Source of the DNA: an uncultured Planctomycetia bacterium
GTDB lineage: Bacteria; Planctomycetota; MHYJ01; WSZJ01
Length of the DNA: 64,000 nt
Direction: 5' to 3'
Assembly (NCBI GenBank): GCA_963706735.1
Contig: CAVPNQ010000116.1
Location: forward strand, 2,704 to 66,703
Part shown: piece after piece, positions 11,050-58,931 of the stretch
Numbering within the stretch: position 1 is the first letter of the stretch
How the letters are laid out: the number at the start of each line of letters is the position of its first letter
Notes under the pieces: generated by a model
What the model saw: the letters and a program-made list of their open reading frames with translations, nothing else
Told to the model about the DNA's origin: nothing
Database searches by the model: none
Position numbers and translations under genes: made by a program

Positions 11050-11065
11050 GGTTGCCTCGCTTCGT

Positions 11066-13246: not shown

Positions 13247-13319
13247 GGGGGTGTAGCTCAGCTGGGAGAGCGCGTGAATGGCATTCACGAGGTCGAGGGT
13301 TCGATCCCCTTCACCTCCA
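13247..13319 (+). tRNA. tRNA-Ala (anticodon GGC), CCA not encoded
   Basis: A manual cloverleaf fold fits. The acceptor stem is GGGGGTG/CACCTCC with the G3:U70 alanine identity pair, and the D arm is GCTC-AGCTGGGA-GAGC. The anticodon stem is CGTGA/TCACG with loop ATGGCAT, and the T arm is GAGGG-TTCGATC-CCCTT. Confidence 0.9.
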
Positions 13320-13448
13320 CTGGATGTTCGCCGGACGGGGTCAACACTTCGGGCCGAAGCGAAATAAAAAGCGCTTCGGCCCTTCGTGTTGGCGGCCGCC
13401 GGTCGAAGTCGTGGCGATCCCGGATCGAGGTGGTTGAGGAGGCCTGCG

Positions 13449-27883: not shown

Positions 27884-27954
27884 GTCGCCGGATTCTACAG
27901 GTTCTCGCGCGAGGGGCTCGAATGGCATGCCCGGCGCAGCTTTCCTGTCCTTTT

Positions 27955-28015
27955 TTTCTCTCTTTTGCTTTTGGCGTTTGGCTTTGTGTTTCGCCGTTTT
28001 GAGTTTGCCCTTTCG
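27955..28015. repeat. CAAA-rich 60-bp dispersed repeat (copy 2, inverted)
   Basis: Its reverse complement CGAAAGGGCAAACTCAAAACGGCGAAACACAAAGCCAAACGCCAAAAGCAAAAGAGAGAAA matches 13008-13067. Confidence 0.8.
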
Positions 28016-28142
28016 GGGCCCGGATAAACGCCAGACACAGGAACCGTACCCGGCGCCATCAATCCGCCTGAACTCGGATCGTGAATAGTCCCCGTTCCTA
28101 TCTGTTAGGGATCGCCGCCCCTTCGGGTACATTTCCCGCCCC

Positions 28143-33680: not shown

Positions 33681-33689
33681 AGAGGCCCC

Positions 33690-34955
33690 ATGGCGGACTA
33701 CGGCACGGCGGTTCACGAGGCGTCCCGCAAGGCGATGGGGGCGTGGTACGACCGGCTCGCGGTCGCCGCGAAGACCGGGTCCCCGTCGGCGTACATCATG
33801 ATCGCCGGGAACTGCGTCGAGATCCTGCGCGCGTTCGACATCGAGCCCGTCTTCCCCGAGGTCAACGCCCTTCAGCTCGCCATCCGCAAGCAGTCCCTCC
33901 CCCTCATTCTCAAGGCCGAGGAAATGGGGTACTCGAGCGACAACTGCGCGTACGTGAAGGCGGACGCGGGGTTCACGTTCGGCGAGGGGGCGCCCGGGGA
34001 CGGCAAGATCCCGAAGCCGACGTTCATCGTGTGCAACTTCGTCGGCTGCAACGTGTACATCAAGTGGTTCGAGCACTGCTCCGAGTTCCTGAACGTCCCG
34101 CTGACCATGCTCGACGTCCCGTTCGTGCGCGGCGACCGCCCTTCCGACGGCGACGTGCGCTACGTGGTCGCCCAGCTCAAGAACCTCATCGCCGCGTGCG
34201 AGCAGGCGACCGGGAAGAAGTTCGACATCGACAAGCTGCGCGAGATCTGCCGGCTGTCGGCGAAGGCGGAGGAGGGGTGGCAGAAGTGCAAAGACCTCTG
34301 CAAGAACACGCCCTCCCCGATGGACGCGTACTTCGACGCCATCAATCTCATGGGGCCGATCAACGTGCTGCGCGGCACGCAGGACGCCGTGGATTTCTTC
34401 GACGTGGCCGTGCGCGAGTACGAGGCGCTGGTGAAGGACAAGAAGGGCCCGATCCCGCAGGAAAAGTTCCGGATCGTCGTCGAGGGGCCGCCGCCGTACC
34501 CGTTCTACCGCCAGTTCCGCGACCTCTTCGCGGCCTGGGGCGCCGTGGCGGTGCAGTCCACCTACTCCACCGTCGGCGGCATCTGGGAATTCGGATTCCG
34601 TCACGACCCGAAGAACCCGCTGGAGTCGATCGCCGAGCAGATGCTGATGGAGAACCTCTGCAACCGCTCGCTTCTCGACCGCTACAAGCAGATCCGCCGC
34701 TACGTCGAGGAGTGGAAGGCCGACGCGCTGGTGATTCATTCCGTGAAGAGCTGCCGTCTGTTCTCCGCGGGCCAGGGAGACATGCGCGACTACTTCGCCA
34801 ACGAGCTCGGCGTCCCCACGCTGCTGGTGGAGTCGGACCTCGAGGATCCGCGCTACTACGCGCAGGCCATGATGAAGAACCGCATCGACGCGTTCTTCGA
34901 GTCGCTGGAGCACCGCAAGCTTCTGAAGAGACCCCAGGGCCGGACGACGGCCTGA
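33690..34955 (+). CDS. benzoyl-CoA reductase / 2-hydroxyacyl-CoA dehydratase family subunit (BcrB/BzdO-like)
   Basis: [38 protein letters not shown] and [16 protein letters not shown] are present. Confidence 0.8.
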
Positions 34956-34974
34956 CGGAACAGGAGAAGACACG

Positions 34975-35826
34975 ATGATTTACGGAGCAGGCGTCGACGT
35001 CGGGTCCACGCAGACCAAGGCCGTCATCCTCGGCGACGGGCGCGAGATCGTCGCGCGCGCGCTCGCCATGACCGGCGCCAACGTGACGAAGGCTGCCGAA
35101 CGCACCTTCAACGAGGCCCTCGCCGCCTCCGGGCTCGCGCGCGAACAGGTCGGCTACATCATCGGCACCGGTTACGGCCGCTACAAGGTCACCTTCGGCG
35201 ACTCCCAGGTCACCGAGATCTCCTGCCACGCCCGCGGCGCCCACTTCATGTTCCCCGGCACCCGCACCGTCATCGACATCGGCGGCCAGGACACGAAGGC
35301 CATCCGTGTCGGCACCCAGGGCGAGGTCGTGGACTTCGCCATGAACGACAAGTGCGCCGCCGGCACCGGTCGATTCCTCTCCGCCTCCGCCGAGGTCCTC
35401 GACCTCCCCCTCGACAAAATCGGCGCCCTCTCCCTCGAGGGCAAGGACCCCGTCCGCCTCTCCACCGTCTGCACCGTTTTCGTCGAATCCGACATCATGT
35501 CCTACCTCGCGCAGAACAAGAAAGTCCCCGACATCCTCGCCGGCGTCCACCGCGCCATCGCGGCACGCACCATCTCCCTCCTCCAGCGCATCGGCATGGC
35601 CGCCGAGTACACCATGACCGGCGGCGTCGCCCGCAACGTCGGCATGGTCACCTGTCTCGAGGAAAAGCTGAAAGCCCCCCTCAACGTCAGCTCCGATTCC
35701 CACTTCATGGGCGCCATCGGCGCCGCCCTCTTCGCCCTCGAACGCGCCGAGCTCGCTTCGCGCGGCAAACGCGAGGCCGCCGTCATCGGCGGCTGGGAAG
35801 ACGGCAGCCAGGAGACGACAAAATGA
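34975..35826 (+). CDS. BcrAD/BadFG-type ATPase subunit (activase-like), copy 1
   Basis: [41 protein letters not shown] and TGGVARN are present. Confidence 0.85.
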
Positions 35827-36614
35827 TCAGCGCCGGAATCGACCTGGGAAGCGGCTTCTCGAAGGCCCTCATCTACCGCGACGACGGCAAAGTCCTGGCG
35901 CGGGCGTTCGCGAAGACCCGCGCGGACTTCGACAAGGCCGCGCGCGAAGTCCTCGACGACGCCCTCGGGCAGGCGAAACTCACTCAATCCGACATCGCCT
36001 ACGTCTGCACCACCGGCCTCGGCCGCTACGCCGTCTCCTTCCGCGACATCCAGGTCACCGAAATCACCGCCGCCGCCCGCGGCGCCTGGACGCTCTTCAA
36101 CCAGGCCCAGTTCGTCCTGGACCTCGGCGCGCAGAGCACCCGCGCGATCCGGCTCCGCGACAACGGCAAGGTGAAGGAATTCCAGACGAACGAGAAGTGC
36201 GCCGCCGGCGGCGGAGCGTTCCTCGTCCGGGCCGCCAAGTACCTCGAAGTTCCGCTCGACTCCCTGGGCAAGCTCTCGATGGACGCGAAAGCCTCCCAGG
36301 CGATCTCGAGCGTCTGCGCCGTTCTCGCCGAGACCGAGATCATCAACCACGTTTCCGAGAACATCCCGATCGGCGACATCGCGCGCGGCATGCACGAATC
36401 GATGGCCGACCGCGCGATGGGCCTCCTCAAGAAGGTCGGCCTCAACGGCCCGCTCTGCCTCGTCGGCGGCGTGGCGATCCAGACCGGCTTCGTCGAGGCC
36501 TGCCGCCGGAAGTTCGGCGTGCCCCTCCTCGTCCCGGAGAATTCGCAATACGCCGCGGCGCTGGGCGCTGCCGTGCTGGGGATGCAGCGGGCGAAGAAGA
36601 GGGTGGCTGTTTAG
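35823..36614 (+). CDS. BcrAD/BadFG-type ATPase subunit, copy 2
   Basis: The ATGA start overlaps the previous stop. [35 protein letters not shown] and VGGVAIQ are present. Confidence 0.85.
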
Positions 36615-36814
36615 GTAGGAAGGCTGGCGAAGGCTGGCGAAGGCGTGCGAAGGCTGGCGAAGGCTGGCTAAAGGCTGCCTGAGGCCAAGCTGGGCGGGCC
36701 GTAGCCCCAAAGCGTCCCGACTTGTCTTCCAGTCGACTGACTCCAGCCAAGCTTGCGAGTGTTCCTTCTGCCAGCCTTCGCACGCCTTCGCACGCCTTCG
36801 CCAGCCTTCCCTAC
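36615..36814. repeat. long hairpin whose arms are 10-nt tandem repeats
   Basis: AGGCTGGCGA-type units occur 5 times at 36621-36670. They are mirrored by GCCTTCGCAC-type units at 36774-36808. The element sits between two convergent stop codons. Confidence 0.8.
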
Positions 36815-37845
36815 TTCCCCGGTATGACCACGCTCCTCACGCTCTTCCCCGCTCTCAGCTCGTCAAACGCCTCGTTCACTTTCTCCAGCGGCCGGCGCGA
36901 CGTCACCAGCGGGCCGAGCTTGTACTGGCCGCTTGCGCACATGGCGAGGACGCGCGGGAAGTCGACGGGACGGCAGCCGAGGGAGCCGACGACGTCCTGC
37001 TCCATGAACATGATCTTGCCGGCAAGCATCTCGACCGGCTTGTCCGCGAAGCCGACGATGCAGAGGCGGCCGCCGGCGCGGATCGAGTTGTGGGCGATGG
37101 GAATGACCTTGTGGCTGCCGATGCACTCCATGGCCTTGTCCACCCCGCCGCCAGTCTTCTTCTTGATCGTCTTGGCCACCTCGGGATCCTTCCCGTCGAT
37201 CGTGTCCGCCGCGCCCAGCTGCTTTGCCAGGACCAGCTTGGCCGGATCGAGGTCCACCGCGATGACGTGCGCGCCCGCAATCGCCGCGAACTGCACCGCC
37301 GACAGGCCGACGCCGCCGCAGCCGAAGATCGCCACCGTCTCGCCCGCACGGATCTGCGCCCGGTGCACCACCGCGTGGTACGCCGTCGTCACCGCGTCCG
37401 CCACGATCGAGGCCTCCACCGGGTCGAGGCCGGCGGGAAGCGGAATCAGGTCGCGCGCCCGCACGCACACGTACTCCGCGAACGCCCCGTCAATGTGGTT
37501 CCCCAGCATCTGCATCTTCTCGCAGATGTTCGACCGCCCCGTCCGGCAGAGCGTGCACTCCCCGCACGTCAGCACCGCGGGGACCAGCACCGCCTGCCCG
37601 ATCTTCAGATTCGCAACCCCCGCCCCCAGCGCGTCGATGTGCCCCGCCGGCTCGTGCCCCAGGATGATCGGCGGCTTCTTGAACGTCGGCACCCCATGAT
37701 CCAGGTAGTGCAGGTCCGTATGGCACAGCCCGCACGCCGCCACCTTCACCCGCGCTTCCCCCGCCGCAGGCTCCGGCACCGGCACGTCCTTGATCTCCAG
37801 CCCCTTGGCCCCCGCGAAGTACACCCCCGCCTTCATCGTCGCCAT
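36811..37845 (-). CDS. Zn-dependent alcohol dehydrogenase family (6-hydroxycyclohex-1-ene-1-carbonyl-CoA dehydrogenase/Had-like by context)
   Basis: CGLCHTDLH, GHEPAG, CGECTLCRTG and GCGGVGLSAVQ are present. The start MATMKAG overlaps the upstream stop (TAATG). Confidence 0.8.
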   Translation of the reverse strand: MATMKAGVYFAGAKGLEIKDVPVPEPAAGEARVKVAACGLCHTDLHYLDHGVPTFKKPPIILGHEPAGHIDALGAGVANLKIGQAVLVPAVLTCGECTLCRTGRSNICEKMQMLGNHIDGAFAEYVCVRARDLIPLPAGLDPVEASIVADAVTTAYHAVVHRAQIRAGETVAIFGCGGVGLSAVQFAAIAGAHVIAVDLDPAKLVLAKQLGAADTIDGKDPEVAKTIKKKTGGGVDKAMECIGSHKVIPIAHNSIRAGGRLCIVGFADKPVEMLAGKIMFMEQDVVGSLGCRPVDFPRVLAMCASGQYKLGPLVTSRRPLEKVNEAFDELRAGKSVRSVVIPGK

Positions 37846-38603
37846 TACGCGTCCTCCCACTTCGGTTTCCGTTTCTCCAGGAATGCCTTCAGCCCCTCGG
37901 CGTTGTCCTTCGAGGGAAGCGTTTTTTCGAGGTACGTCCGGCACGCCGCGGCATAGGCCGCGCGGCGGTTCGGGGCGGAAGCGGCTTCCCGGAGGCCCGT
38001 CTTGGCGGCGCCGAGGGCGGCGCCGGAGAAGCCGGCCAGTTTCGCGACCAGCGCTTCGACCTTCGCGTCGAGTTCCGCGTCCGGCGCGGAGTCGTTCACG
38101 AGCCCCCAGGCCGCAGCCTCTTTGCCGCTCAGCGTGCGGCCCGTGTAGACGAGTTCGGCCGCGCGCGCGACGCCGATGCGGGCCGGCAGGTCCACCGCCG
38201 CGGCGGGCGGAAAAACGCCGAGCGTGATCTCCGGGACGCCGAGCTTCGCTTCGTCCGCCGCCAGCACGAGGTCGCACGCCGCGGCGAGTTCCAGACCCGC
38301 GCCGAGGCACGCGCCGCGCGCCACGGCAACGATCGGCACCGGCGCTTCCGCGATGGAATTGAGCAGCCCCTGCAGCGTCTCGAGCAGCCCGGGGCCCTTG
38401 TCCGGGAAGTGTTCGCTGATATCGGCGCCCGCGGAGAGGTGCTTCCCTGCCCCGCGCAGCACGGCCACGCGGTCGGCGGGCTTGAGCGACCGGAATGCGC
38501 CGGTGAGTTCCTGCATCGCCGCGCAGGTCAGGATGTTGAGCGGCGGGTTCGCGAGCGTGACGTGCGCCGCGCCGCCCTTCCGTTCGACGGTGACAAGGCT
38601 CAT
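37845..38603 (-). CDS. enoyl-CoA hydratase/crotonase (dienoyl-CoA hydratase/Dch-like by context)
   Basis: VTLANPPLN, LRGAGKHLSAGADI, ARGACLGAGLELAAACD and GVPEITLGVFP are present. The ATGA start overlaps the SDR stop. Confidence 0.75.
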   Translation of the reverse strand: MSLVTVERKGGAAHVTLANPPLNILTCAAMQELTGAFRSLKPADRVAVLRGAGKHLSAGADISEHFPDKGPGLLETLQGLLNSIAEAPVPIVAVARGACLGAGLELAAACDLVLAADEAKLGVPEITLGVFPPAAAVDLPARIGVARAAELVYTGRTLSGKEAAAWGLVNDSAPDAELDAKVEALVAKLAGFSGAALGAAKTGLREAASAPNRRAAYAAACRTYLEKTLPSKDNAEGLKAFLEKRKPKWEDA

Positions 38604-39319
38604 GCGAGCTGACCTCCATCCACGCGGATGACCTCGCCGGAAATGTGGCGCGAGCCGGGCGCGCACAGGAACGCGACGACTTCGGCGACGTCCTCGGGCG
38701 TGGCGATGCGCCCCAGGGCGGTTTCCTCCGCGAGCTTCTTCTTCGTCTCGGGCGGGACGTCCTTCGTGAGTTGCGTCTCGACCAGCCCGGGCGCGACCGC
38801 GTTCACGTTGATCCCGTCGCGGCCGAGGTCTCGCGCGGCCCCGCGCGTGAGCCCGATCAGCCCTGCCTTCGCGGCCGCGTACGCCGCCGTGCCGCGACGC
38901 GCCCGCAGCGCCAGGGTCGAAGCGATATTCACGATCCGTCCGCCGCCGGCGGCGGTCATGGCGGGGGCGACCTCGCGGATGAAGACGTACGCGCCGGTCA
39001 GGTCCACGCCGATCGTCGCGTCCCAGTGCTCCTGCGACAGGCGCGGAAGCGGCCCGCCCAGGGAGATCCCGGCGCAGTTCACGAGCGCCTTCACCGGCGC
39101 GCCGCGCGCGGTCAGCCACGCCACGGCCTTCTGCGCCGTCGCCGCTTCCCGCACGTCGCCCTTCACCGCCGCGTTTCCGGCCACGTCCACCACGCAGACG
39201 AAGTACCCGTCCCGCTCGAGACACCGCGAGATCGCCGCGCCGATCCCGGCCGCGCCGCCCGTCACGATGGCGCCGCGCGCCGACGATTTTGCCGGCCGCT
39301 TATTTCCCCGTGACGGCAT
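38600..39319 (-). CDS. short-chain dehydrogenase/reductase (FabG-like)
   Basis: TGGAAGIG, NCAG, the YAAAKAG catalytic motif, and a PG..T tail are present. Confidence 0.8.
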   Translation of the reverse strand: MPSRGNKRPAKSSARGAIVTGGAAGIGAAISRCLERDGYFVCVVDVAGNAAVKGDVREAATAQKAVAWLTARGAPVKALVNCAGISLGGPLPRLSQEHWDATIGVDLTGAYVFIREVAPAMTAAGGGRIVNIASTLALRARRGTAAYAAAKAGLIGLTRGAARDLGRDGINVNAVAPGLVETQLTKDVPPETKKKLAEETALGRIATPEDVAEVVAFLCAPGSRHISGEVIRVDGGQLA

Positions 39320-40349
39320 GGCCGCACGCTCCGCAGAACTTGAAGCCGGCCGGCATGCCCTTGGTCCCGCACTTCGGGCAGTCCGCCGACGGCGGCCCGA
39401 AGGGGTACTCGGGCGAATCGTCGTTCGCCCACTTCTCCCGCATCTTCCCCCAGTTGGTCTTGCGCTTCTCGGAGAACGCCCGCATGCCTTCCTGCGGCTC
39501 GGGCGAAGTGAAGTGCAGCGCGAGCCAGTCCTGCGCGTGGCCGACGGTCGCGTGCCAGACCGCTTCCTTGTTCTGGTTCACCTGCACCTTGGTGTAGCGC
39601 AGGCACTCGGGGAACTTGTCCTTGAGGTTGGCGACGTACTCGGCGACTTTCGCGTCGAGCTGCGAGAGGTCGATCGCCCAGCCTTCCTTCTTGTCCGCGG
39701 CCATCTTGACCTGGGTCTCGGTCGGGTTTTCGACGAACTTTCCGTCCTTCGTCACGCTGGGTGCGACCGCGTTGACGAGCCCCCACTCCAGCGCTTTCCG
39801 CGCGGGGATTTTCGGGTTCATCATGAGCATCTCGCGCGCCCGCCGGTCGCCCACGACCATCGGCAGCCACTGCGTCGCGCCGCCGCACGCCACCGACCCG
39901 ACGCTCGTCCCCACCTGCCCGACCCATGCGTGCTCCGCGATGACCGCCAGGTCGCACGCCAGCTGCGACTCGTTCCCGCCGCCGGCCGCCATCCCGTTGA
40001 TCCGCGCGATCACCGGCTTCGGGCAGTGCATGATCGCCTCGAGATACGCCCGGAACAGGCTCATGTACTTCCAGTACTCCCGCGGCTTCTTCACGTAGAT
40101 GTCCGCGTACTCCTTCACGTCCCCGCCGGTGCAGAACGCCTTCTCCCCGGCCCCCGTGTACACCACCGCCGCCACCCGGTCGTCCCACCCGGCATCCTCG
40201 AACGCCCGCGCCAGCTCCCTCAGCGCACCCGTCGAGTACGCGTTGTAGTTCTGCGGCCGGTTGATCGTGATCGTCGCCACCCCGTCCTTCTTCACGTACA
40301 GGATTTCCTTGAACGAGGCGCCGTCGCCGAGCGGTTTGAATTCGTTCAT
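39300..40349 (-). CDS. MenB/Oah-type crotonase (6-oxocyclohex-1-ene-1-carbonyl-CoA hydrolase-like by context) with a C-terminal zinc-ribbon tail
   Basis: ILYVKKDGVATITINRPQNYNAYS, YTGAGEKAFCTGGD and INGMAAGGGNESQLACD are present. The tail is CPKCGTKGMPAGFKFCGACGH. Confidence 0.7.
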   Translation of the reverse strand: MNEFKPLGDGASFKEILYVKKDGVATITINRPQNYNAYSTGALRELARAFEDAGWDDRVAAVVYTGAGEKAFCTGGDVKEYADIYVKKPREYWKYMSLFRAYLEAIMHCPKPVIARINGMAAGGGNESQLACDLAVIAEHAWVGQVGTSVGSVACGGATQWLPMVVGDRRAREMLMMNPKIPARKALEWGLVNAVAPSVTKDGKFVENPTETQVKMAADKKEGWAIDLSQLDAKVAEYVANLKDKFPECLRYTKVQVNQNKEAVWHATVGHAQDWLALHFTSPEPQEGMRAFSEKRKTNWGKMREKWANDDSPEYPFGPPSADCPKCGTKGMPAGFKFCGACGHAVTGK

Positions 40350-40524
40350 CGTATTAACCAATCCCCGAAGCGGTTGGGAAGACAGGAAGAGCCGTTCCCG
40401 GAATGGGCGCAAATTACGCGCCTGTGGGCCCCCTTGCGCAGCCTGCCCCTTCCCGCCCAACCCGCCGTTGAAGTTCACGCACTTCTGGGGCACACTCCGC
40501 ACCTCACCCTTTCCTGGAGCCCCC

Positions 40525-41427
40525 ATGCGATTCCTGCTGGCCGCCACCGCGGCCCTCTTCGCCACCGCGCTTCTCGCGCGCGCCGGCGACAGCGGCTGGA
40601 CGGAGATCGGCGTCGACGACCTCGACATCGCGATCCGTTCCGGCGAAGTCAACGTGTACGACACCAATCCAAAGCGAGTCTGGGAGAAGCGCCGCGTGAC
40701 GAGCGCGACGTGGCTCGACGCGAAGAAGTTCACCGCCGACGACCTTCCGAAGGACAAGGCGGCGATGCTCGCGTTCTACTGCATGAACGAGAACTGACAC
40801 ACGTGCCACCGGGCAGCCGACCGTGCCGTCGGCTTCGGTTACACGAACGTGCGCGTGTTCGCCGTGGGGCTTGAAGGATGGGAAAAGGCCGGCAAATCGA
40901 GCGCGCCCGACGCGGGCGTCCAGAAGGAGGAAGAAGTGCTTGGATTCACGATGAAGGGCATCGACGGCAAGGACGTGAAGCTCGCGGACTACAAGGGCAA
41001 GGTCGTGCTGCTGGTGAACGTGGCCTCGAAGTGCGGGTACACGAAGCAGTACGCGGACCTGGAGGCACAGTACGGCAAGTACAAGGAGAAGGGGTTCGTG
41101 GTGATCGGGATCCCGGCGAACGAATTCGGCGCGCAGGAGCCGGGGACGGACGAGGAGATCAAGAAGTTCTGCGAGACGACGTACTCGGTGACGTTCCCGA
41201 TGCTGTCGAAGGTGGTGGTTAAGGGCGACGGGATCTGCCCGCTGTACAAGTTCCTCACCGAGGAGAAGACGAACCCGGGATTCGCGGGCGAGATCAAGTG
41301 GAACTTCACGAAGTTCCTGGTGAGCCGCGAGGGGAAGGTCGTGAAGCGGATGGACTCGAAGGCCCGCGTGACGGACGAGGATGCGGTGAAGGCGATCGAG
41401 GCGGAGCTGGAGAAGAAGGCGAAGTAG
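40525..41427 (+). CDS. candidate selenoprotein: exported rhodanese-like domain with an in-frame TGA (40795-40797), continuing in frame into glutathione peroxidase. The alternative is a disrupted rhodanese gene.
   Basis: The same reading frame is open on both sides of the TGA. FYCMNEN-TGA-HTCHRAADRAVGFGYTNVRVFAVGLEGWEKAG completes a rhodanese fold. A GC hairpin starts 18 nt after the TGA. Confidence 0.35.
40936..41427 (+). CDS. glutathione peroxidase (Cys type), possible independent start
   Basis: AGGAGG lies 5 nt before the GTG at 40936. KGKVVLLVNVASKCGYTKQY, GFVVIGIPANEFGAQEPG and KWNFTKFLV are present. Confidence 0.8.
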   Translation: MLGFTMKGIDGKDVKLADYKGKVVLLVNVASKCGYTKQYADLEAQYGKYKEKGFVVIGIPANEFGAQEPGTDEEIKKFCETTYSVTFPMLSKVVVKGDGICPLYKFLTEEKTNPGFAGEIKWNFTKFLVSREGKVVKRMDSKARVTDEDAVKAIEAELEKKAK

Positions 41428-41453
41428 GGATTGAGGAGAAACGGACGACTCGA

Positions 41454-41485
41454 GCGGGCCCGGGAATCTCCGGGCCCGCTTTTTT
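41454..41485 (+). terminator. rho-independent terminator
   Basis: GCGGGCCCGG-GAATCT-CCGGGCCCGC is followed by TTTTTT. Confidence 0.8.
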
Positions 41486-41746
41486 GTCCTGATTGGGTCA
41501 CCGAAATGTAACGAAGGGATTCCCCGGTAACAGGATTCGGGGCATTTCCAGAACGGAACAACGCCACAAAGCCTTTGCGCTGATTTACTTATACAAAGAT
41601 TAACCTTCTTCATCTTTCGGCCCACGGCTTGCAACCTCCGGTTTTCCGTCCGCGTGTCCCGTCTGCACAAACCCCGCGACGACCCCGACCGGAGGCAATC
41701 CGGGAAGGTTCGGCGCCACCGATGTTTTTATTTCGGAGCCTCGACC

Positions 41747-44700
41747 ATGCGCATTTCCCGCCGCTTCAACAATCGCGGCTTTGTGATCCTCGTCGCGCTC
41801 GGCGTCCTGGGCATCCTCGGCCTCCTCGCCGCGGCCTTCGCCACGATGTCGCGCGTCGAGAAGTCGGCGTCCTCTTCCTACGTGGACAAGGTCCGCGCCC
41901 GCCTCCTCGCCGAATCCGGCGTCGAGCGCGCCCTGGCCTCGATCCGCGCCCGCACGCAGATCCAGGCGTGGGACGACGCGCGCAACGACTGGTACTACCG
42001 CGAAATGCTGAACGCGCCGGTCGGGACGCTCACCTACTCCCCCGCCGCGATCGCCGCGCTGGGCGGATACACGCCGAAGCGCGCCTACGGCACGCCGCCG
42101 CGGCGTCTCGAGCAGGTCTGCGACGAAGCGATACTCAGCAGCGCGGTGACCGGGCTCTCCTTCGTGGACGCCTCCCGCCCCTGGATGAGCGGCGGCATGC
42201 CGGGCACCTACGAGCTCGACGGCGACACCTACGCCGTCAAGGCCCTGGACTGCGCTTCCATGCTGTTCGTCAATGACCAGAACCCCCAGATCAAGCGCCT
42301 CCTCAACAACCTCGGCTCGATCATGAGCCTCGACGCCGGTCTCCCGACGCCGTTCAAGCTGGGCGACGAGATCGTCGCGGTCGCCAAGCTGCGGAACCGG
42401 CCGTTCGCGCACAAGGGCGAGGTCCTCGACCTCGTGTTCGTCCCGAAGCTCGGCGCCGTCGAGGCCCGCGCGCGATTCGACAAGGTCCGCGACTTCATCA
42501 CCTGCCACGGATGGGTGGACTACACGACGATGCATTTCGGCCCCAAGCCGGTCGGATTCGCCGCGTCCGCGCCTCCCACCCCGGCCGACATCATCGATCG
42601 CGGCGGCGTCGTGACGCAATTCGTCCCCGCCTCGGGCTCCGCCACCACGGCCGCCAAGTTCGGCGGCAACAACCAGTGGAAAGAGCCGCGCGCGCCGATC
42701 AACGTCAACACGGCGAGCCGCGAAGTGCTGGTCGCGATGCTCTGGGGGCTGACGGCTAAGTTCGTGGACTACGATCACGCGAGCGGCCACCTGGTGACGC
42801 GCGACATCACGATCTCCCAGGCCAACGCCGAGGCCGCGGCCGATCACATCATCGCCGCCCGGTTCTCCTTCGGCACGCCCGCCGGCGCCTGGTCCTTCAA
42901 CGACTGGATGCACTTCCGCTCCGAGGTCATCGACACGATCCCCGGCCTCGACCGCTTCCAGCGCGCCCTGATCCACGCCAACGGCAACCCGAACACGGAC
43001 ATCCGCAAGCTCAACCCGGACCTGCTTCTGGTGGACCCGAATCCGCTGACCGAATCGGTGGACCTCGTGCGCCTCGACAAGTCCGACATCACGCAGAAAT
43101 CCACCGAGTGGACGTTCTCGTCGATGGGCCTGTTCGAGATCGAGTCCCTCGGCCGCGTCACGGCGGGCGGGAAGCTCCTCGCGGAAGAGAAAGTCACGAC
43201 GGTCGTGAAAGTCTTCGACGCGCTGCGCTTCACGACGCAGGAACAGTTCGAGAAGGACCGGAGCTGGACGAACGACGACCCGGCGAAGACGGAGGGCAAC
43301 CTCTACTCGGACGGATTTCCCCCGGTCGTCTCGATGCCGGAGTACCCGTACAACAACCCGAAGCTGATTCCCAGCCCGCGGTACAAGAGCGCTTCCGGCG
43401 ACCTGGCCTGGGCGTCCGACTATGACGGCTACCTCACGCTGAACGGCCCCGCCAACGTCATGGCCGGCCAGACGCCGACCGACTTCAACACGTCCGCCGC
43501 CAAAATGTGCCGCAAGCCGCACGGGGGCTGGCCCGCCAACTGCCCGTCGTGGGCCGTGCTTCCCAACGAGTCCGGCATCGACTGCAAGGTCAGCGGCGTC
43601 TGGGGATTCAACCTCGGCAAGCTCGGGCCCAACCAGTCCCACGCCAACGTCCCTTCCAATACCCAGAAACACGTCCTCCCCGCTCCCACCAACCCGGAGT
43701 ACACCTACGCGTCCCCGAACTGCGAGGGCGTCAAGGTCACCAACTCCCCCGCCAACTCGCTGTCCTCCGATACCGAATACTCCTCGGCCTGGGGCATCGC
43801 TCCCAAGCGCCCCTACCAGATCCAGCCCGGCGGCGCCCTCAACGCCATCGCTACGGGCTTCTTCGAGGACGGCGCCGATATCCAGCCCTTCGGCCTCTAC
43901 GTGAACTACCTCAAGCGCCGCCGGTTCCACACGATCTGGGGCGATGAACTCCCCACCGCTCGCTTCACCGTCGAGTTCGCCTACAAGCCCGAGGTCGATC
44001 ACTGGGAATGGGGGAAGGGTCTCGCGCAGACTCCCGCGGCCAAGGCGGCCAACGCCGGGCCGGTCTCGAAGATGCACCTCTGGGGGCTGGGCGCCGCGAC
44101 GCACGGGACGAACTACGAGCAGTGGGTTTACGTCCAGGGATCGCGCATCTTCTACGACCTGTACTACGGCGGGCAGCACTACGTGATGTACGCCGACCAC
44201 GACTTCCGGGCGCACACCTGGCACCACATCGAGTTCAGCGTGATCGATGGCCAGTCGAAAACGCTCGCGGACGGGTCCACCGTCTTCGTGCCGCCCAACG
44301 CCATGCTCTTCGTGGACGGCAAGCCCGCTTCCGGCATCGTCGGCGCCGGTGAGGACGTGAACACCAAGCTCGGCAAGGCCGTCTTCGACGTCAAGGCGAT
44401 GGCCCTCCCCGTCCCGTTCATCGGCGTCTACCCGAACAACGACTGGGGCGTCGGCCCGCGCATGGAAATCGGAAGCAAGCTGCAGAACACGATGGACGGA
44501 TTCGGCATGAGCCAGCCCTCCACCATCGGCACCATCGATAACCTCGTCATCCACCACTGGCGCAGCCACGAGTCCGCCTTCACCCCCCGGAACCGCTTCC
44601 ACAGCATGTCCTACTACGACGGGACGACGTTCAAGAGCGGGAAGGGCTACAAGGGAGAGAAGGCGGGGGTCTACAAGAAGCGGCTGGCGGCGGTGGAGGC

Positions 44701-45064
44701 GGCTGTGGCAGCGGGGGGCGAGGTGACGATCGGGACGGTGACGTGCACGCATTACCACCCGTTCCACGTTCACCTGTACGGGCACGACGGTTCGGCGCCG
44801 ACGACGTCGTTCGGGCACATCACGCCGTCGATCCGGACGAAGACGGGCGGAAGCTACCTGGACTCTTACTACTACGACGGGTGTGCGGGGCTGCCGGTGA
44901 AGACGGCGGTGAAGGCGGGGACGGAGGTGTACTACATGGGGTGGTTCGAGGTGGCGGCGATGGTGCCGGTGACGATGTCGCCGATCCTCGACGACCTGAC
45001 GGTGACGTACTTCGCGGAGCCGAAGGTGCTGTACCGGCACAGTTCGGTGGAAGTGCGCCGGTAA
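41747..45064 (+). CDS. giant GspK-like pseudopilin-type protein with a LamG-like domain (1105 aa), paralog 1
   Basis: N-terminus RGFVILVALGVLGILGLLAAAFATMSRVE. GspK-type motif PINVNTASREVLVAMLWGL. LamG-like motifs HTWHHIEFS...NAMLFVDG...IDNLVIHHW. His-rich C-terminus CTHYHPFHVHLYGHDG. Confidence 0.85.
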   Translation: MRISRRFNNRGFVILVALGVLGILGLLAAAFATMSRVEKSASSSYVDKVRARLLAESGVERALASIRARTQIQAWDDARNDWYYREMLNAPVGTLTYSPAAIAALGGYTPKRAYGTPPRRLEQVCDEAILSSAVTGLSFVDASRPWMSGGMPGTYELDGDTYAVKALDCASMLFVNDQNPQIKRLLNNLGSIMSLDAGLPTPFKLGDEIVAVAKLRNRPFAHKGEVLDLVFVPKLGAVEARARFDKVRDFITCHGWVDYTTMHFGPKPVGFAASAPPTPADIIDRGGVVTQFVPASGSATTAAKFGGNNQWKEPRAPINVNTASREVLVAMLWGLTAKFVDYDHASGHLVTRDITISQANAEAAADHIIAARFSFGTPAGAWSFNDWMHFRSEVIDTIPGLDRFQRALIHANGNPNTDIRKLNPDLLLVDPNPLTESVDLVRLDKSDITQKSTEWTFSSMGLFEIESLGRVTAGGKLLAEEKVTTVVKVFDALRFTTQEQFEKDRSWTNDDPAKTEGNLYSDGFPPVVSMPEYPYNNPKLIPSPRYKSASGDLAWASDYDGYLTLNGPANVMAGQTPTDFNTSAAKMCRKPHGGWPANCPSWAVLPNESGIDCKVSGVWGFNLGKLGPNQSHANVPSNTQKHVLPAPTNPEYTYASPNCEGVKVTNSPANSLSSDTEYSSAWGIAPKRPYQIQPGGALNAIATGFFEDGADIQPFGLYVNYLKRRRFHTIWGDELPTARFTVEFAYKPEVDHWEWGKGLAQTPAAKAANAGPVSKMHLWGLGAATHGTNYEQWVYVQGSRIFYDLYYGGQHYVMYADHDFRAHTWHHIEFSVIDGQSKTLADGSTVFVPPNAMLFVDGKPASGIVGAGEDVNTKLGKAVFDVKAMALPVPFIGVYPNNDWGVGPRMEIGSKLQNTMDGFGMSQPSTIGTIDNLVIHHWRSHESAFTPRNRFHSMSYYDGTTFKSGKGYKGEKAGVYKKRLAAVEAAVAAGGEVTIGTVTCTHYHPFHVHLYGHDGSAPTTSFGHITPSIRTKTGGSYLDSYYYDGCAGLPVKTAVKAGTEVYYMGWFEVAAMVPVTMSPILDDLTVTYFAEPKVLYRHSSVEVRR

Positions 45065-45559: not shown

Positions 45560-48500
45560 GTGCTCGATCGAAGCCTTGAACGCCAGCGTGGATTCGTCCT
45601 GCTGGTTGCTCTCGGCGTCCTCGGTGTTCTGGGCCTGCTCGCAGCGACGTTCGCGACCCTGTCGCGCGTCGAACGGGCGGTCTCGAACAGCTATGTAGAC
45701 AAGGTCCGCGCAAAGATGCTCGCCCAGTCGGGAGCGGAGCGTGCGATCGCGTCCATCCGGGGTCGCGCCATGGTCCAGGCCTGGGACGATGCCAGGAATG
45801 ACTGGTACTACCGCGAAATGCTGAACGCGGAAGTCGGCGGACTGGTCTACCCCGCCGCCGTCAAAGCCAGCATCTGGAAGTACACGCCCACCAGGTCCTA
45901 CGGCATGCCGCCGCGGTCCCTGGAAGCGTCGCTGGACGACGGCGTCGTGAACGGCGTCCCGAACGGCATCTCTTTCCCCCAGGCTGCCACGCCGTCCGCC
46001 AACGAGCCCTTCAGCGGACAGTTCCCCGGCACCTACGAGAGCCGCGGCGACGTGTACGCCCTCAAGGTCCTCGACTGCGCGTCGATGATCAACGTCAACG
46101 ACGGCAGCTCGCAGGTCGTCCGCATGCTGAACAACCTCGGTTCGATCCTCAAGTGCGCCGACGGCACGCTGGTCAGCGCCGGCGGGTTCAACCTCGGCAC
46201 CAAGATCCAGACCAAGGCGATCAGCCGCGGAAAGCCCTTCAACAACAAGTCCGAGATCCTCTCCGAGGTCTTCATCGCCGACCCGCTGTTCGCGGGGAAC
46301 GCCGCCGCGGCGCGCAGGCGCTTCGACGCGGTCCGCGATTTCATCACGTGCCATGGCTGGGTGGACGGCATGACGATGAAGTTCAACAACACGTGGACCG
46401 GCGCGACCGACTACACGGGCGGGAGCTACGCTTCGGCCTCGACCGGCGGCAGTGGCGGCGGCGGTGGTGGTGGCGGCGGCGGAACGGGCGACCCGACGGA
46501 CCCGAAGGATCCGATCGGCGGGACTGACCCGATCGATTACAAGATGGCCCCGGGTCTTCCCGAGTTCGCGACCAGCCCTCTCTACTCGATCCAGTCGATC
46601 ACCCCCGGCGTTTACGCTTCGATCCCGTCCACGCGCGTCCTGGCGGCCCCCGGGCCCCAGAAGGCGAAGGACGTGAAGAAGGGCGGCGCTTTCCGTCAGT
46701 TCGTCACGGGGCAGGGCACGAATGCGGCCCTTGGCGGCGAGACGGCGGCGGGCAAGTTCGGCGGCACCTACTACCAGGGTGAGCCCCGGACGCCGATCAA
46801 CATCAACACCTGCACGAAGGAAGTCCTCGTCGCGACGCTGATGGACCTGGAAGCCAGCTTCTGGGACTACGCAGTCGTGTCCGAGTCGGCCGTTCCGAAG
46901 GAGTACACGTCGTCGCTCGGCCTCGTCACCGTGAAAATCACGAAGGCGGAGGCGGAGAGCGTCGCGGACTTCCTCATCAGCGGCCGCTTCACGAACGGCT
47001 CCCCCTCGGGCGCCTGGTCCTACAACGACTGGATGCACTTCGAGGACGACGTCCTCCTGGCCATCCCGGGGATCACGCGCTTCCAGAAGGCCCTCATCAA
47101 GGCCAACGCGAACCCGAACTCGAACATCAAGAAGATGTGCCCGGACCTGATCCTTGTGACCTCGAATCCGTCGATCAACCCTGACGAGCTGGTCCGCATG
47201 GACAAGAGCGACATCAAGGTGAACTCGACGGACTGGACGTTCAGCTCGAACGGGATTTTCGAGATCGAGAGCATCGGCCGCGTGTACAACGCCGGGAAGA
47301 TCATGGCGGAAGAGAAGCTGGAGACGGTGGTGAAGGTGTTCGACCAGGTGGTGTACACGACGCAGGAGCAGCTCGAGGACGACCGGGTCTGGACGACCGA
47401 GGACTCGAAGGAAGGCGACCTGCTGGCGGGCGGGTATCCGCCGGTGATTTCGATGCCCGAGTACGTGTACAACTCCGCGGCGAGCGCGAGCCACTATCGC
47501 AGCCAGACGGGGGACGAGACGTGGTGCGCGGACTACGAGGGGTACCTGATCCTCAACGGTCCGGCGAACGTCCAGGCCGGACAGACCCCCGGCCCCGCGA
47601 AGGACGGTGCGGCCGGGTATGGTGAAGGCAACGTGGCGGAGGCCTGCTGGGGTTCGGATCCGTACAACCTGGCGAAGGTCAGGCCGAATACCGGCGTCCA
47701 TTCCTCGGCGCTGGTCGGCGACGGTCCGCCGGCCGGCCTGAAAGCATGCGCCGTGTCGTTCGTCGCAGGATTCAACATGGGCAGCCTGTACCCGAACCAG
47801 AGCCACCGGAACAAGTATCACGATCCGGCCCAGGGCGGGACCGGCACGCCGAGGCATCCCGAGTACTCCTACTCGATGCCCCACTGCTTCGCTGACGGCG
47901 CTTACATGTCCGCTTCGCCGGCGAATTCATTCACGCAGGACACGAACTACAGCAGCTCGGGCTACTCGCCCAAGGAGCCTTACCAGATCAAGCCCACGAT
48001 GAGTGGCGCCAACTTCTGGGACGGCGGCTGCGACCTCCAGAACTTCGGCGTCTACATGAACCAGACCCGCCGCAACCGCTTCCATACGTACTGGGCGGAC
48101 GAGGTTCCGGCGCCGAACTGCACGCTCGAAATGACGGTCAAGCCGGAAATCGACCTGTGGACGTGGGCCCCGAAGAGCAAGATGCACACGGTGGACAACG
48201 GATGGGCGACCTACACGATCATGCCCTGCAAGCGGCAGTTCCTGTTCGACTGGGGAACCGGCGGGACGAAGGGCATGAACTACACGATCCGCGGATATGC
48301 CGATCTCTCCCGGGTCTACCTCGAGTTCTACCACCACAGCACGGGCGCCTTCTACGTGCTCTGGCACGACAACGTCTGGAAACCCCACACCTGGCACCAC
48401 GTGGAGTTCTCCTGGTCCAGCGCCCAGGAAATCACGAACTCGGACGGCACCAAGACGGTCGTCCCGCCGAACGCCATGCTCTTCGTGGACGGTTCGACGA

Positions 48501-56073: not shown

Positions 56074-58584
<2,511 letters not shown>

Positions 58585-58710
58585 TACTGCTCCTTTATTG
58601 GCTGGGAGTGCGTGGATCCCGGCGCCCCAAGGCCCGATCCGGGGCGAAATCCGGTGCAAACGGGGTGGTATCTCTAGCACATGGGCGCGTGGGCGGCAAC
58701 AGTCGGAACA

Positions 58711-58824
58711 TGGGCGCGCGAAAATCCCGCGGGCTCGGGCTTCGTCGGCCTGGTGGATGGTTGGGGGGCGGTTGTTCGTTGGAGGGCCGACTCCGCCCGG
58801 GCCCGCGGGATTTTCGCGCGCCCA
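58711..58824. repeat. 114-bp palindromic element homologous to 49416-49528
   Basis: TGGGCGCGCGAAAATCCCGCGGGCTCGGGC pairs with GCCCGGGCCCGCGGGATTTTCGCGCGCCCA. An inner GTCGGCC/GGCCGAC pair is also present. Confidence 0.8.
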
Positions 58825-58931
58825 CGGGGCCGATTGAGCGGGTTTCTCACTCTGGCGGGCGGAGCCGGGCCGCATGGGCAGGGACGCGCGGGAACTTGCC
58901 CCTGTGCGGGCTCCGGCCTTATGCTCCGGGG

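What the first reader, a model, noticed from the sequence alone, without database searches (positions are those of the whole stretch)
40525..41427. In-frame TGA at a Cys-equivalent position of a rhodanese-like domain, read-through into glutathione peroxidase
The exported ORF starting at 40525 stops at TGA 40795-40797, in the middle of a rhodanese fold. The same frame stays open after the TGA and encodes the missing half of the domain (HTCHRAADRAVGFGYTNVRVFAVGLEGWEKAGK). It then runs without a stop into a Cys-type glutathione peroxidase.

The local sequence C-MNEN-[TGA]-HT-C-HRAA matches the C-x4-C-x2-S-x2-AA pattern I remember from a subgroup of rhodanese-like proteins. The TGA falls on the second Cys of that pattern. 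Rhodanese-related sulfurtransferases are a reported bacterial selenoprotein family.

A 7-bp GC-rich hairpin (AGCCGAC-CGUGCC-GUCGGCU, 40815-40834) begins 18 nt after the UGA. Its apical loop contains GU, which is compatible with a bacterial SECIS.

Alternatives are a nonsense-disrupted rhodanese pseudogene or a sequencing error. In either case the GPx would be translated independently from GTG 40936, which has a good AGGAGG SD.
Basis: partly seen in the sequence, partly recalled or inferred. Interest (0 to 1): 0.75.

Follow-up and report, generated by a model that had tools for sequence, protein, structure and literature searches.

The report
Selenocysteine rhodanese fused to glutathione peroxidase
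The in-frame TGA is almost certainly a selenocysteine codon in an unannotated exported protein that joins a rhodanese-like redox domain to a glutathione peroxidase; this is a new variant of a known kind of bacterial selenoprotein.

Summary

- **Conserved TGA.** TGA 40795-40797 interrupts a rhodanese domain in a 301-codon frame that runs on into a Cys-type glutathione peroxidase (GPx). All 8 distinct orthologues (Planctomycetia MAGs and metagenome contigs, 63-86% identity) keep the TGA, the frame and the fusion. After the TGA, changes are mostly synonymous.
- **Cys/Sec pair.** The column is an invariant Cys in about 200 Cys-form homologues (72 genome loci, 7 metagenome loci, 120 database proteins). 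A stand-alone exported form, FYC-x4-U-x2-CH, carries TGA there in 4 Myxococcota MAGs and in 73 of the 80 best metagenome matches.
- **Hairpin.** Every TGA form has a GC-rich hairpin 11-18 nt downstream, and Cys forms mostly lack it. The hairpin is not statistically exceptional alone.
- **Other checks.** TGA is an ordinary stop elsewhere in the window. An independent assembly has the identical sequence.
- **Not tested.** selA, selB, selD and tRNA-Sec are absent from the window, and the rest of the genome was out of reach.
- **Novelty.** A 2026 review lists five rhodanese selenoprotein forms, none with a UxxC motif and none fused to GPx.
- **Internal start.** A conserved Shine-Dalgarno sequence plus GTG at 40924-40938 suggests GPx is also made alone.

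Biochemical function is inferred, not shown.

The parts
40525..41427 (+). Whole recoded gene: 300-residue precursor (signal peptide, Sec-containing rhodanese-like domain, linker, Cys-type GPx) plus the TAG stop
   Evidence: Translation; Pfam domains; the same open frame in 8 orthologues
40525..40584 (+). Predicted Sec-type signal peptide MRFLLAATAALFATALLARA, cleaved before GD
   Evidence: Read from the sequence (n-region, hydrophobic core, A-x-A). Orthologues keep a signal peptide, and the Myxococcota stand-alone forms have lipobox-like signals. Inference; no predictor was run.
40585..40899 (+). Rhodanese-like domain (residues 21-125), interrupted by the UGA
   Evidence: PF00581 matches residues 33-121. 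The AF2 model of Cys form P0012 matches rhodanese structures 3nhv, 3o3w, 6mxv and 1gmx.
40780..40782 (+). Cys86, the canonical rhodanese catalytic Cys at the end of the beta-strand (FYC)
   Evidence: Invariant in all homologues; aligned to the YC of BH2092
40795..40797 (+). UGA read as selenocysteine (Sec91). Aligned with an invariant Cys five residues after the catalytic Cys.
   Evidence: TGA is conserved in 8 fused orthologues, 4 Myxococcota MAGs and 73 of 80 metagenome loci. Cys occupies the column in all other homologues.
40804..40809 (+). Cys94-His95, completing the U-x-x-C-H motif
   Evidence: C and H are invariant in all 81 TGA loci of the two scans and in the window, and present in 113 of 120 closest Cys forms. 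In the AF2 model the equivalent Cys lies in the first helical turn.
40815..40834 (+). SECIS-like hairpin: 7-bp stem AGCCGAC/GUCGGCU with loop CGUGCC. Starts 18 nt after the UGA; the loop starts 25 nt after it.
   Evidence: A hairpin of at least 6 bp occurs in 61 of 65 distinct TGA sequences against 11 of 79 Cys sequences. It is not significant by energy or by synonymous recoding.
40900..40935 (+). Variable linker between the domains, kept in frame (one orthologue is one codon shorter)
40924..40938 (+). Shine-Dalgarno-like AAGGAGG (40924-40930) plus in-frame GTG (40936-40938): candidate internal start for a stand-alone GPx without signal peptide
   Evidence: G-GAG-GA and GTG are invariant in all 8 orthologues although the encoded residues differ (KEE, EEE, LED). 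Use as a start site is inferred.
40936..41424 (+). Cys-type glutathione peroxidase domain. Peroxidatic Cys170 (41032-41034) lies in NVASKCG. Cys216 (41170-41172) in KKFCE is the putative resolving Cys. Gln204, Trp and Asn of the GPx tetrad are present.
   Evidence: PF00255 at 126.8 bits. Residues were read. The assignment of the resolving Cys rests on known plant and yeast GPx-like peroxidases (prior knowledge).
41452..41487 (+). Intrinsic terminator (13-bp stem with 10 G-C pairs, then a T run) closing the single transcription unit
   Evidence: No terminator-like site lies between the two domains.

Best explanation
Window 40525-41427 is one gene for an exported selenoprotein.

**Shown here**
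- UGA 40795-40797 falls at the position of an invariant Cys five residues after the rhodanese catalytic Cys (FYC86-MNEN-U91-HT-C94-H).
- A hairpin lies at SECIS distance downstream (40815-40834).
- The frame runs on through the rest of the rhodanese-like domain and a short linker into a Cys-type glutathione peroxidase.
- There is no stop before 41425, and one terminator follows the gene.

**Inferred decoding.** The UGA is decoded as selenocysteine by the SelB/tRNA-Sec system, with the hairpin acting as the SECIS.

**Inferred mechanism**
- Sec91 and Cys94 sit at the N-terminus of the active-site helix, like a thioredoxin-type CxxC pair.
- They would form a selenol/thiol redox centre, possibly also with Cys86.
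- This centre would exchange electrons or chalcogen with the fused peroxidase. GPx Cys170 is oxidised by peroxide, Cys216 resolves it, and the U-x-x-C centre re-reduces it or relays the oxidation.
- All this would happen outside the cytoplasm.

**Inferred second product.** Ribosomes that do not insert Sec stop after 90 residues. The conserved Shine-Dalgarno sequence plus GTG at 40924-40938 lets the GPx also be made alone, without a signal peptide.
For: **Conservation of the TGA and the fusion**
- TGA sits at the same codon and the frame stays open into GPx in every fused orthologue. These are L001-5/L008/L011, L006/L012, L007, L013, L014, L091 and L092, at 63-86% identity.
- One orthologue (L007) has a one-codon indel in the linker that keeps the frame.
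- In codons 92-124 after the TGA, changes cluster at third positions. For L012 the counts by codon position are [0,1,8], with 8 synonymous and 1 non-synonymous codon changes.

**Cys/Sec pairing**
- The column is Cys in 72 of 80 genome loci and TGA in the other 8.
- All top 120 database proteins have Cys there: 113 C-x4-C-xx-CH and 7 C-x4-C-xx-SH.
- Stand-alone UxxCH forms carry TGA in Polyangiaceae and Kofleriaceae MAGs and in most of the 73 TGA loci among the 80 best metagenome matches.

**Hairpin**
- All 65 distinct TGA sequences have a hairpin starting 11-18 nt after UGA: 61 with at least 6 bp and 4 with 5 bp.
- There are 23 different 5' arms, and the loops have G in the first two positions.
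- Among 79 Cys sequences only 11 have at least 6 bp and 42 have none. None of the 9 closest CxxCH forms has a comparable hairpin.

**Controls**
- TGA terminates 12 of 47 well-supported ORFs in the window, this ORF included, so it is not reassigned.
- An independent assembly has the identical sequence.

**Structure and context**
- In the AF2 model of a Cys form (pLDDT about 98 across the domain) the U-equivalent Cys lies two residues before the helix and the second Cys lies in its first turn.
- The Sec-decoding trait is known in some Planctomycetes (PMC4807772).
- The SD plus GTG is conserved, and a single terminator follows the gene.
Against: - No selA, selB, selD or tRNA-Sec was found in the 64-kb window or in 1.59 Mb of flanks. 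The rest of the genome could not be searched, so the trait is unverified for this organism.
- The hairpin is not thermodynamically exceptional (z = 0.2).
- Synonymous recoding reproduces equally good hairpins (window p = 0.38, median p = 0.21). The hairpin signal therefore lies in the amino acids that follow Sec, not in silent sites.
- Planctomycetia and Myxococcota hairpins are offset by about 4 nt and give no common consensus.
- No Rfam SECIS match was found.
- Nothing tests the proposed redox coupling between the two domains.
- Neighbours of the stand-alone forms include no recurrent redox partner.
Confidence: 0.85

Rival explanations
1. Nonsense-disrupted rhodanese pseudogene or a sequencing or assembly error. 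Only the GPx would be functional.
For: Public gene calls split the locus into a 90-aa ORF and a 192-aa GPx ORF.
Against: - The same TGA is present in 8 distinct orthologues at 63-86% identity and in 77 stand-alone relatives (4 Myxococcota MAGs and 71 of the metagenome loci are the stand-alone part).
- The sequence after the TGA is under purifying selection in this frame.
- An independent assembly has the identical sequence.
Confidence: 0.01
2. UGA is a true stop. The products would be a 90-residue N-terminal fragment and a GPx started at GTG 40936 or 40849. The conserved sequence between them would be an RNA or regulatory element, not protein.
For: - A strong, conserved SD plus GTG lies upstream of the GPx domain.
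- Sec machinery is not demonstrated.
- Sec decoding is inefficient in known systems (30-40% in E. coli, abstract of PMC4513850), so termination must be frequent in any case.
Against: - Codons 92-124 evolve as coding sequence in this frame and complete a rhodanese fold.
- A half-domain cut at its active-site loop has no precedent.
- The stand-alone relatives have the same TGA with nothing but the rest of the domain downstream.
Confidence: 0.03
3. UGA is read through, but not as Sec. Candidates are near-cognate Trp or Cys insertion, or another recoding route. The hairpin would act only as a read-through stimulator.
For: - Sec machinery could not be checked.
- The hairpin has no statistical support of its own.
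Against: - The recoded position is an invariant redox Cys, and a Cys/TGA pair is the classical Sec signature.
- TGA dominates in the CxxCH subfamily across phyla.
- Hairpin distance and G-containing loops fit bacterial SECIS rules (prior knowledge: bSECISearch criteria of 16-37 nt from UGA to the apical loop).
- Selection for a stop codon to encode Cys or Trp would be pointless.
Confidence: 0.05

Closest known systems
Rhodanese-like selenoproteins, forms 1-5 of the 2026 review (PMC13188914): UxxS (WP_010941598.1), UxxG (two forms), CxU (NF041203) and UxxxxU (TsoB, NF045694)
   Same: A rhodanese homology domain with Sec in or next to the active-site loop. All were predicted by the same Cys/TGA-plus-SECIS logic. 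All are presumed redox or sulfur/selenium-transfer proteins.
   Different: - The motif here is C-x4-U-x2-C-H, a UxxC motif that is not among the five listed forms.
- NCBIfam scores are far below cut-off: NF041203 27.6-30.3 against 115, NF045694 about 26 against 805.
- None of the listed forms is fused to GPx.
- Form 1 (UxxS) may have Sec in the same column, since Cys relatives show both CxxCH and CxxSH.
TsoB, rhodanese/DsbD fusion-like selenoprotein (NF045694)
   Same: - An extracytoplasmic rhodanese-like domain carrying Sec, joined to a redox module.
- Its U-x4-U spacing equals the C-x4-U spacing here.
- It is one of the top three NCBIfam matches for every stand-alone form scanned, and the best for four of six.
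   Different: - The partner is a DsbD-like membrane electron transporter, not a peroxidase.
- It has two Sec residues.
- The match covers the rhodanese region only and is very weak.
- Column equivalence of the Sec residues was not shown, because no alignment output was available.
PQQ-dependent catabolism-associated CXXCW motif protein (TIGR03865)
   Same: An exported rhodanese-like protein with a CxxC-aromatic/His motif at the same place. It is the best NCBIfam match to the window's rhodanese domain alone.
   Different: It has Cys only. The score is 31-33 bits against a cut-off of 128. Its function is also unknown.
BH2092 of Bacillus halodurans (PDB 3nhv, 3o3w)
   Same: A single-domain rhodanese with YC-x4-C. 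It is the closest solved structure by sequence (E = 0.02) and among the top fold matches.
   Different: It has no third Cys or His (CNGAT), no Sec and no fusion. It is a structural-genomics entry with no assigned function.
Peroxidase fused to its own reductant (for example peroxiredoxin-glutaredoxin hybrids), and the periplasmic rhodanese PspE acting in thiol-disulfide chemistry (both from prior knowledge, not tested here)
   Same: The logic of putting a thiol peroxidase and a CxxC-type partner in one polypeptide, and of a rhodanese Cys doing redox work in the periplasm.
   Different: The folds and partners differ, and neither contains Sec. The analogy is functional only.
E. coli fdhF-type bacterial SECIS
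   Same: A hairpin inside the coding region just 3' of UGA, with G (often GU, and in many relatives GGUC) in a small apical loop.
   Different: Shorter stem. No bulged U is evident. No sequence similarity. SelB binding is untested.

Membership tests
Bacterial selenoprotein gene (SelB/SECIS-decoded UGA) | In-frame UGA conserved among orthologues, with the frame open and coding downstream | tested here: met
   8 fused orthologues plus 77 stand-alone TGA forms. Substitutions after the TGA fall mainly at third positions and are mostly synonymous.
Bacterial selenoprotein gene (SelB/SECIS-decoded UGA) | Cys-containing homologues with Cys aligned to the UGA | tested here: met
   The column is Cys in all non-TGA homologues.
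Bacterial selenoprotein gene (SelB/SECIS-decoded UGA) | SECIS hairpin immediately downstream: apical loop about 16-37 nt from UGA, with G in the loop | tested here: inconclusive
   - Present at the right place in all 65 distinct TGA sequences and rare in Cys forms.
- Energy z-score 0.2.
- Synonymous-recoding p = 0.38 for the window.
- No shared consensus and no Rfam hit.
- bSECISearch was not available.
Bacterial selenoprotein gene (SelB/SECIS-decoded UGA) | selA, selB, selD and tRNA-Sec in the same genome | not testable with these tools
   - Absent from the 64-kb window: ARAGORN and Pfam on about 45 ORFs.
- Absent from 1.59 Mb of flanks: ARAGORN plus tblastn with E. coli SelD and SelB; those queries were validated.
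- The trait exists in some Planctomycetes (PMC4807772).
Bacterial selenoprotein gene (SelB/SECIS-decoded UGA) | Selenium found in the protein | not testable with these tools
   Needs 75Se labelling or mass spectrometry.
Rhodanese homology domain (PF00581) | Profile match above the curated cut-off, and the rhodanese fold with the catalytic Cys after the central beta-strand | tested here: met
   - 25.9 bits against 22.2, residues 33-121.
- The AF2 model of Cys form P0012 shows strand, C-loop, helix.
- Foldseek top hits are all rhodaneses.
NF041203 rhodanese_LYCAU (rhodanese selenoprotein form 3, CxU) | Score of at least 115 bits, with Sec two residues after the catalytic Cys | tested here: not met
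   27.6-30.3 bits. Sec here is five residues after the Cys.
NF045694 TsoB | Score of at least 805 bits, a rhodanese plus DsbD-like architecture and a UxxxxU motif | tested here: not met
   About 26 bits over the rhodanese part only. There is no DsbD domain, and the first position is Cys.
TIGR03865 PQQ_CXXCW | Score of at least 128 bits and a CXXCW motif | tested here: not met
   31-33 bits. The motif here is UxxCH.
Glutathione peroxidase family (PF00255), Cys type | Profile match, with a peroxidatic Cys (not Sec) in the VASxCG context and conserved Gln, Trp and Asn | tested here: met
   - 126.8 bits against 27.
- NVASKC170G, FGAQ204EP and KWNF are read.
- The whole protein does not reach the BtuE equivalog cut-off (168 against 270), so only domain-level membership is claimed.

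The most novel reading that the evidence does not exclude
The gene is a selenium-gated two-output device.

- **With selenium.** UGA91 is read as Sec. The cell exports a peroxidase carrying its own selenol/thiol (UxxC) redox partner, a self-contained extracytoplasmic peroxide-reducing or peroxide-sensing unit.
- **Without selenium.** Ribosomes stop at UGA91, and the conserved internal SD plus GTG yields an ordinary cytoplasmic GPx.

In parallel, the stand-alone FYC-x4-U-x2-CH proteins would be a sixth, so far uncatalogued and abundant (soil) form of rhodanese selenoprotein.
Probability: 0.25. Interest if true: 0.7.

Novelty: new variant of a known kind. Interest (0 to 1): 0.55.

Why it matters
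**Annotation.** Public gene calls split this locus into a 90-aa hypothetical protein and a 192-aa GPx. A whole selenoprotein is therefore invisible in current annotation, as are its many stand-alone relatives.

**Classification.**
- It adds a UxxC-type Sec site to the rhodanese fold, and the first rhodanese-GPx fusion I could find.
- The 2026 catalogue of more than 110 prokaryotic selenoprotein families lists neither (PMC13188914).

**Function.**
- The fusion gives a rare functional hint for a large family of exported C-x4-C-x2-C-H rhodanese-like proteins of unknown role. It suggests they work with thiol peroxidases, or more generally as redox relays outside the cytoplasm.
- The conserved internal start suggests a simple, testable link between selenium supply and where a peroxidase ends up in the cell.

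**Ecology.** TGA forms dominate among the metagenome matches (73 of 80). This suggests that selenium use by soil Myxococcota-like bacteria and some Planctomycetia is under-counted.

Tried and rejected
- **Rfam.** Searches at gathering and permissive thresholds gave no SECIS family.
- **Common hairpin consensus.** RNAalifold on the codon-register alignment of 8 TGA sequences gave no shared structure, because the Planctomycetia and Myxococcota hairpins are offset by about 4 nt. MAFFT on the excised hairpins aligned by sequence rather than by structure, so I did not run the count of structure pairs or build a covariance model.
- **Hairpin significance.** The energy z-scores and the synonymous-recoding test were both non-significant. 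I therefore do not claim the hairpin as independent statistical evidence, only its association with TGA.
- **Tool and paper limits.**
For the same reason the fusion itself could not be modelled, so a Cys-form relative was modelled instead.
  - The bSECISearch paper and Haft & Tolstoy 2025 are not held. The Sec column of form 1 and of TsoB therefore could not be compared directly.
- **Sec machinery.** Searches of the window and all flanks found nothing.
- **Other candidates in the window.** A scan for other in-frame-TGA candidates found none convincing.
- **Gene neighbourhood.** Analysis of 84 stand-alone loci found lineage synteny only (an OPT-like transporter, a GNAT acetyltransferase and similar) and no thioredoxin, DsbD or peroxidase partner.
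- **Heme-c reading of CxxCH.** I considered this for an exported protein and rejected it as unlikely. Relatives carry CxxSH, CxxY or CxxW at the same place, and the motif sits in the rhodanese active-site loop and helix.
- **Global TGA reassignment.** Rejected, because TGA ends 12 of 47 good ORFs.
Full report
**1. The observation**

- An ORF starts at ATG 40525 with a typical signal peptide (MRFLLAATAALFATALLARA|GD).
- It reaches TGA at 40795-40797 (codon 91). The same frame then continues without a stop to TAG 41425-41427.
- With the TGA replaced by Cys, Pfam places a rhodanese domain on residues 33-121, straddling the TGA (25.9 bits, cut-off 22.2). It places a glutathione peroxidase domain on residues 141-244 (126.8 bits).
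- The hairpin AGCCGAC-CGTGCC-GTCGGCT lies at 40815-40834.
- AAGGAGG lies at 40924-40930 and an in-frame GTG at 40936-40938.
- A strong intrinsic terminator (13-bp stem plus a T run) follows the gene at 41452-41487. Nothing terminator-like separates the two domains.

**2. Is the TGA real and conserved?**

An independent Logan assembly of run ERR12036780 matches the window over 3161 nt with no mismatch, TGA included.

A protein search returned three relatives of the N-terminal part at 83, 75 and 71% identity, all called as 89-90 residues. They are cut at the same spot. Their DNA shows TGA at the same codon, the same downstream text (HTCH[RK]AADRAVGFG...) and an open frame into GPx.

Scans of species-representative genomes and of JGI metagenomes added more.
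- Four Planctomycetia or Planctomycetota MAGs: L011 at 86%, L012 at 84%, L013 at 78%, L014 at 67%.
- Two metagenome contigs: L091 at 79%, L092 at 63%.
- In all there are 8 distinct fused genes, counting the window, L007 (Logan only), and the four MAG and two metagenome loci. Every one has TGA and the rhodanese-GPx fusion. No Cys-containing fused version turned up.

Other points support translation through the TGA.
- Between the TGA and the end of the rhodanese domain (codons 92-124), differences from the window fall mainly on third codon positions and are mostly synonymous. For L012 the counts by position are [0,1,8], with 8 synonymous and 1 non-synonymous changes. For L014 they are [4,1,13], with 10 and 4.
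- The linker varies in sequence. In L007 it is one codon shorter, yet the frame is kept.
- Synteny is conserved: ECH-like gene, this gene, a giant exported protein, acyl-CoA dehydrogenase, MutS2.
- TGA ends 12 of 47 well-supported ORFs in the window, so the codon is not reassigned.

A pseudogene or a sequencing error is excluded.

**3. What aligns with the TGA?**

In the genome scan, 72 of 80 related loci have Cys (TGC or TGT) in this column and 8 have TGA.
- The family is a small exported rhodanese with the motif [FY]C-x4-C.
- The first Cys is the canonical catalytic one, at the end of the central beta-strand.
- The TGA column is the second, invariant Cys.

The closest subfamily reads C-x4-C-x2-C-H in 113 of the top 120 database proteins and C-x4-C-x2-S-H in 7. 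The window protein is therefore C86-x4-U91-x2-C94-H95.

The same TGA occurs in stand-alone proteins, which stop a few codons after ...GWEKAGK.
- Three Polyangiaceae MAGs and one Kofleriaceae MAG.
- Most of the 73 TGA loci among the 80 best metagenome matches. All 73 read UxxCH; the other 7 read CxxCH.

This is the classical Cys/Sec signature, seen in two phyla and dozens of independent sequences.

**4. The hairpin**

Among 65 distinct TGA-containing sequences, 61 have a hairpin of at least 6 bp and the other 4 a 5-bp hairpin, starting 11-18 nt after the UGA.
- The loops have 3-6 nt: CGGGC, GGUC, CGUGC, CGUGCC, CGUGA and others.
- G is always in the first two loop positions.
- There are 23 different 5' arms.

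Among 79 Cys-containing sequences only 11 have such a hairpin and 42 have none. None of the 9 closest CxxCH Cys forms has a comparable hairpin.

A few changes are compensatory at silent sites. In L103 and L154, GCU...GCA replaces GCC...GCG.

The distance and loop content fit the published rules for bacterial SECIS elements (prior knowledge).

The limits should be stated plainly.
- The folding energy is not unusual for this G+C-rich sequence (z = 0.2).
- Recoding the downstream codons synonymously, with the family's own codon usage, gives equally good hairpins (window p = 0.38, median p = 0.21).
- The Planctomycetia and Myxococcota hairpins are about 4 nt out of register and give no common consensus.
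- Rfam finds nothing.

The signal therefore lies in which amino acids follow Sec (AADRAVG, GAGRAL, AAVAAEK and others). Each of these encodes a palindrome. That is what an in-ORF SECIS would impose, but it is not independent proof.

**5. Sec machinery**

This is the one test I could not complete.
- No tRNA-Sec was found in the window or the flanks.
- No SelA, SelB or SelD domains appear among about 45 window ORFs.
- tblastn with E. coli SelD and SelB found nothing in 1.59 Mb of fetched loci.
- The literature shows that some Planctomycetes (two Porphyra isolates, Gemmata obscuriglobus and Isosphaera pallida) carry the full Sec set. It also reports selenoprotein gene exchange with myxobacteria (PMC4807772).

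**6. How it probably works**

Shown:
- one transcription unit;
- a signal peptide;
- a rhodanese fold completed only by reading through the UGA;
- a GPx domain with the peroxidatic Cys170 in NVASKCG;
- Gln204 and the Trp-Asn pair;
- Cys216 in KKFCE, at the position of the resolving Cys of thioredoxin-dependent GPx-like peroxidases (position assignment from prior knowledge).

An AlphaFold model of a Cys form (P0012, pLDDT about 98 across the domain) shows a beta-strand ending at the catalytic Cys, followed by a 7-residue loop. The U-equivalent Cys lies two residues before the helix, and the next Cys lies in the first helical turn. This is the geometry of a thioredoxin-type CxxC. The fold matches single-domain rhodaneses: BH2092, 6mxv, TSTD1 and GlpE.

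Inferred:
- U91/C94, perhaps with C86, form a selenol/thiol redox centre.
- This centre serves the fused peroxidase outside the cytoplasm, where thioredoxin is not available. It either re-reduces the Cys170-Cys216 disulfide or receives the oxidation.
- I put about 0.4 on this specific coupling.

**7. A second product**

In all 8 fused orthologues the hexamer G-GAG-GA lies 5-8 nt upstream of an invariant GTG, which is the first residue of the GPx domain. This holds even though the encoded residues differ (KEE, EEE, LED) and neighbouring third positions vary.

This looks like a retained ribosome-binding site and start codon. Sec decoding competes with termination; recoding efficiency is 30-40% in E. 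coli (abstract of PMC4513850). A cytoplasmic GPx without signal peptide is therefore probably made as well. The balance between the two products could follow selenium supply. This is inference and can be tested with reporters.

**8. Comparison with what is known**

The 2026 review of prokaryotic selenoproteomes lists five rhodanese-type selenoprotein forms (PMC13188914):
- UxxS;
- UxxG (two forms);
- CxU (NF041203);
- UxxxxU (TsoB, NF045694).

By the field's own rule, a different Sec site or motif defines a different subfamily (PMC9312934). None of the five has a UxxC motif and none is fused to GPx.

The window domain and the stand-alone forms score far below the cut-offs of NF041203, NF045694 and TIGR03865.

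Form 1 (UxxS) might be the Ser variant of the same column, since Cys relatives show both CxxCH and CxxSH. I could not obtain that sequence or the original papers.

I therefore file the finding as a new variant of a known kind: a rhodanese-like selenoprotein with a UxxCH site, here fused to GPx.

**9. Verdict**

- Confidence that UGA91 encodes Sec and that the fusion protein is made: about 0.85.
- The biochemical role and the dual-output idea are hypotheses.
- Interest is moderate. Selenoprotein specialists would want it in the catalogue and would find the fusion and the abundance of stand-alone TGA forms useful. It does not overturn anything.

Noticed in passing
L016, L020, L021, L023 and L093-L170 (for example L016:10193, L140:3001-3303): A stand-alone exported or lipoprotein rhodanese, FYC-x4-U-x2-CH, carries TGA in 4 Myxococcota MAGs and in 71 of the 80 best JGI metagenome matches. 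Each has its own downstream hairpin. It is not covered by any NCBIfam selenoprotein model and is not listed with a UxxC motif in the 2026 review.
   Followed up: partly
window 32523-35826 (+) and 35900-40349 (-): Two HGD-D (2-hydroxyacyl-CoA dehydratase/benzoyl-CoA reductase-type) subunits plus a BcrAD/BadFG activator ATPase. Next to them on the other strand are Zn-ADH, enoyl-CoA hydratase, SDR and a 349-aa enoyl-CoA hydratase with a C-terminal zinc ribbon. Together this looks like an oxygen-sensitive anaerobic acyl-CoA or aromatic-ring pathway immediately upstream of the peroxidase gene. The arrangement is syntenic in the related MAGs.
   Followed up: partly
window 41654-45064 and 45560-49252 (+): Two very large paralogous proteins (1136 and 1230 aa, about 50% identical) with an N-terminal pseudopilin-like hydrophobic segment and no Pfam match. 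L008/L011 has one copy, while the window and L014 have two.
   Followed up: partly
window 2-568, 782-1471, 1539-2303 (-): Three tandem small exported paralogues. Two have weak matches to secretin/TonB N-terminal (STN, GspD N0) domains.
   Followed up: no
window 10603-12838 (-) and 14846-17925 (+): Two adjacent FHA-domain proteins, one with VWA domains. Also an ECF sigma factor followed by a zf-HC2 anti-sigma/VWA/YfbK-type protein.
   Followed up: no
window 40261-40524 and gene calls in L008 (9605-9949): ORF callers choose different upstream starts for the truncated 5' half (90 aa against 114 aa). They start the GPx ORF at GTG 40849, inside the rhodanese domain. Public annotation of this locus is therefore inconsistent as well as split.
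   Followed up: yes
window 56074-58875 (-), 26831-28156 (-), 13247-13320 (+): A membrane H+-pyrophosphatase, a radical SAM protein and a tRNA-Ala(GGC). These are ordinary context genes with no link to selenium use.
   Followed up: no
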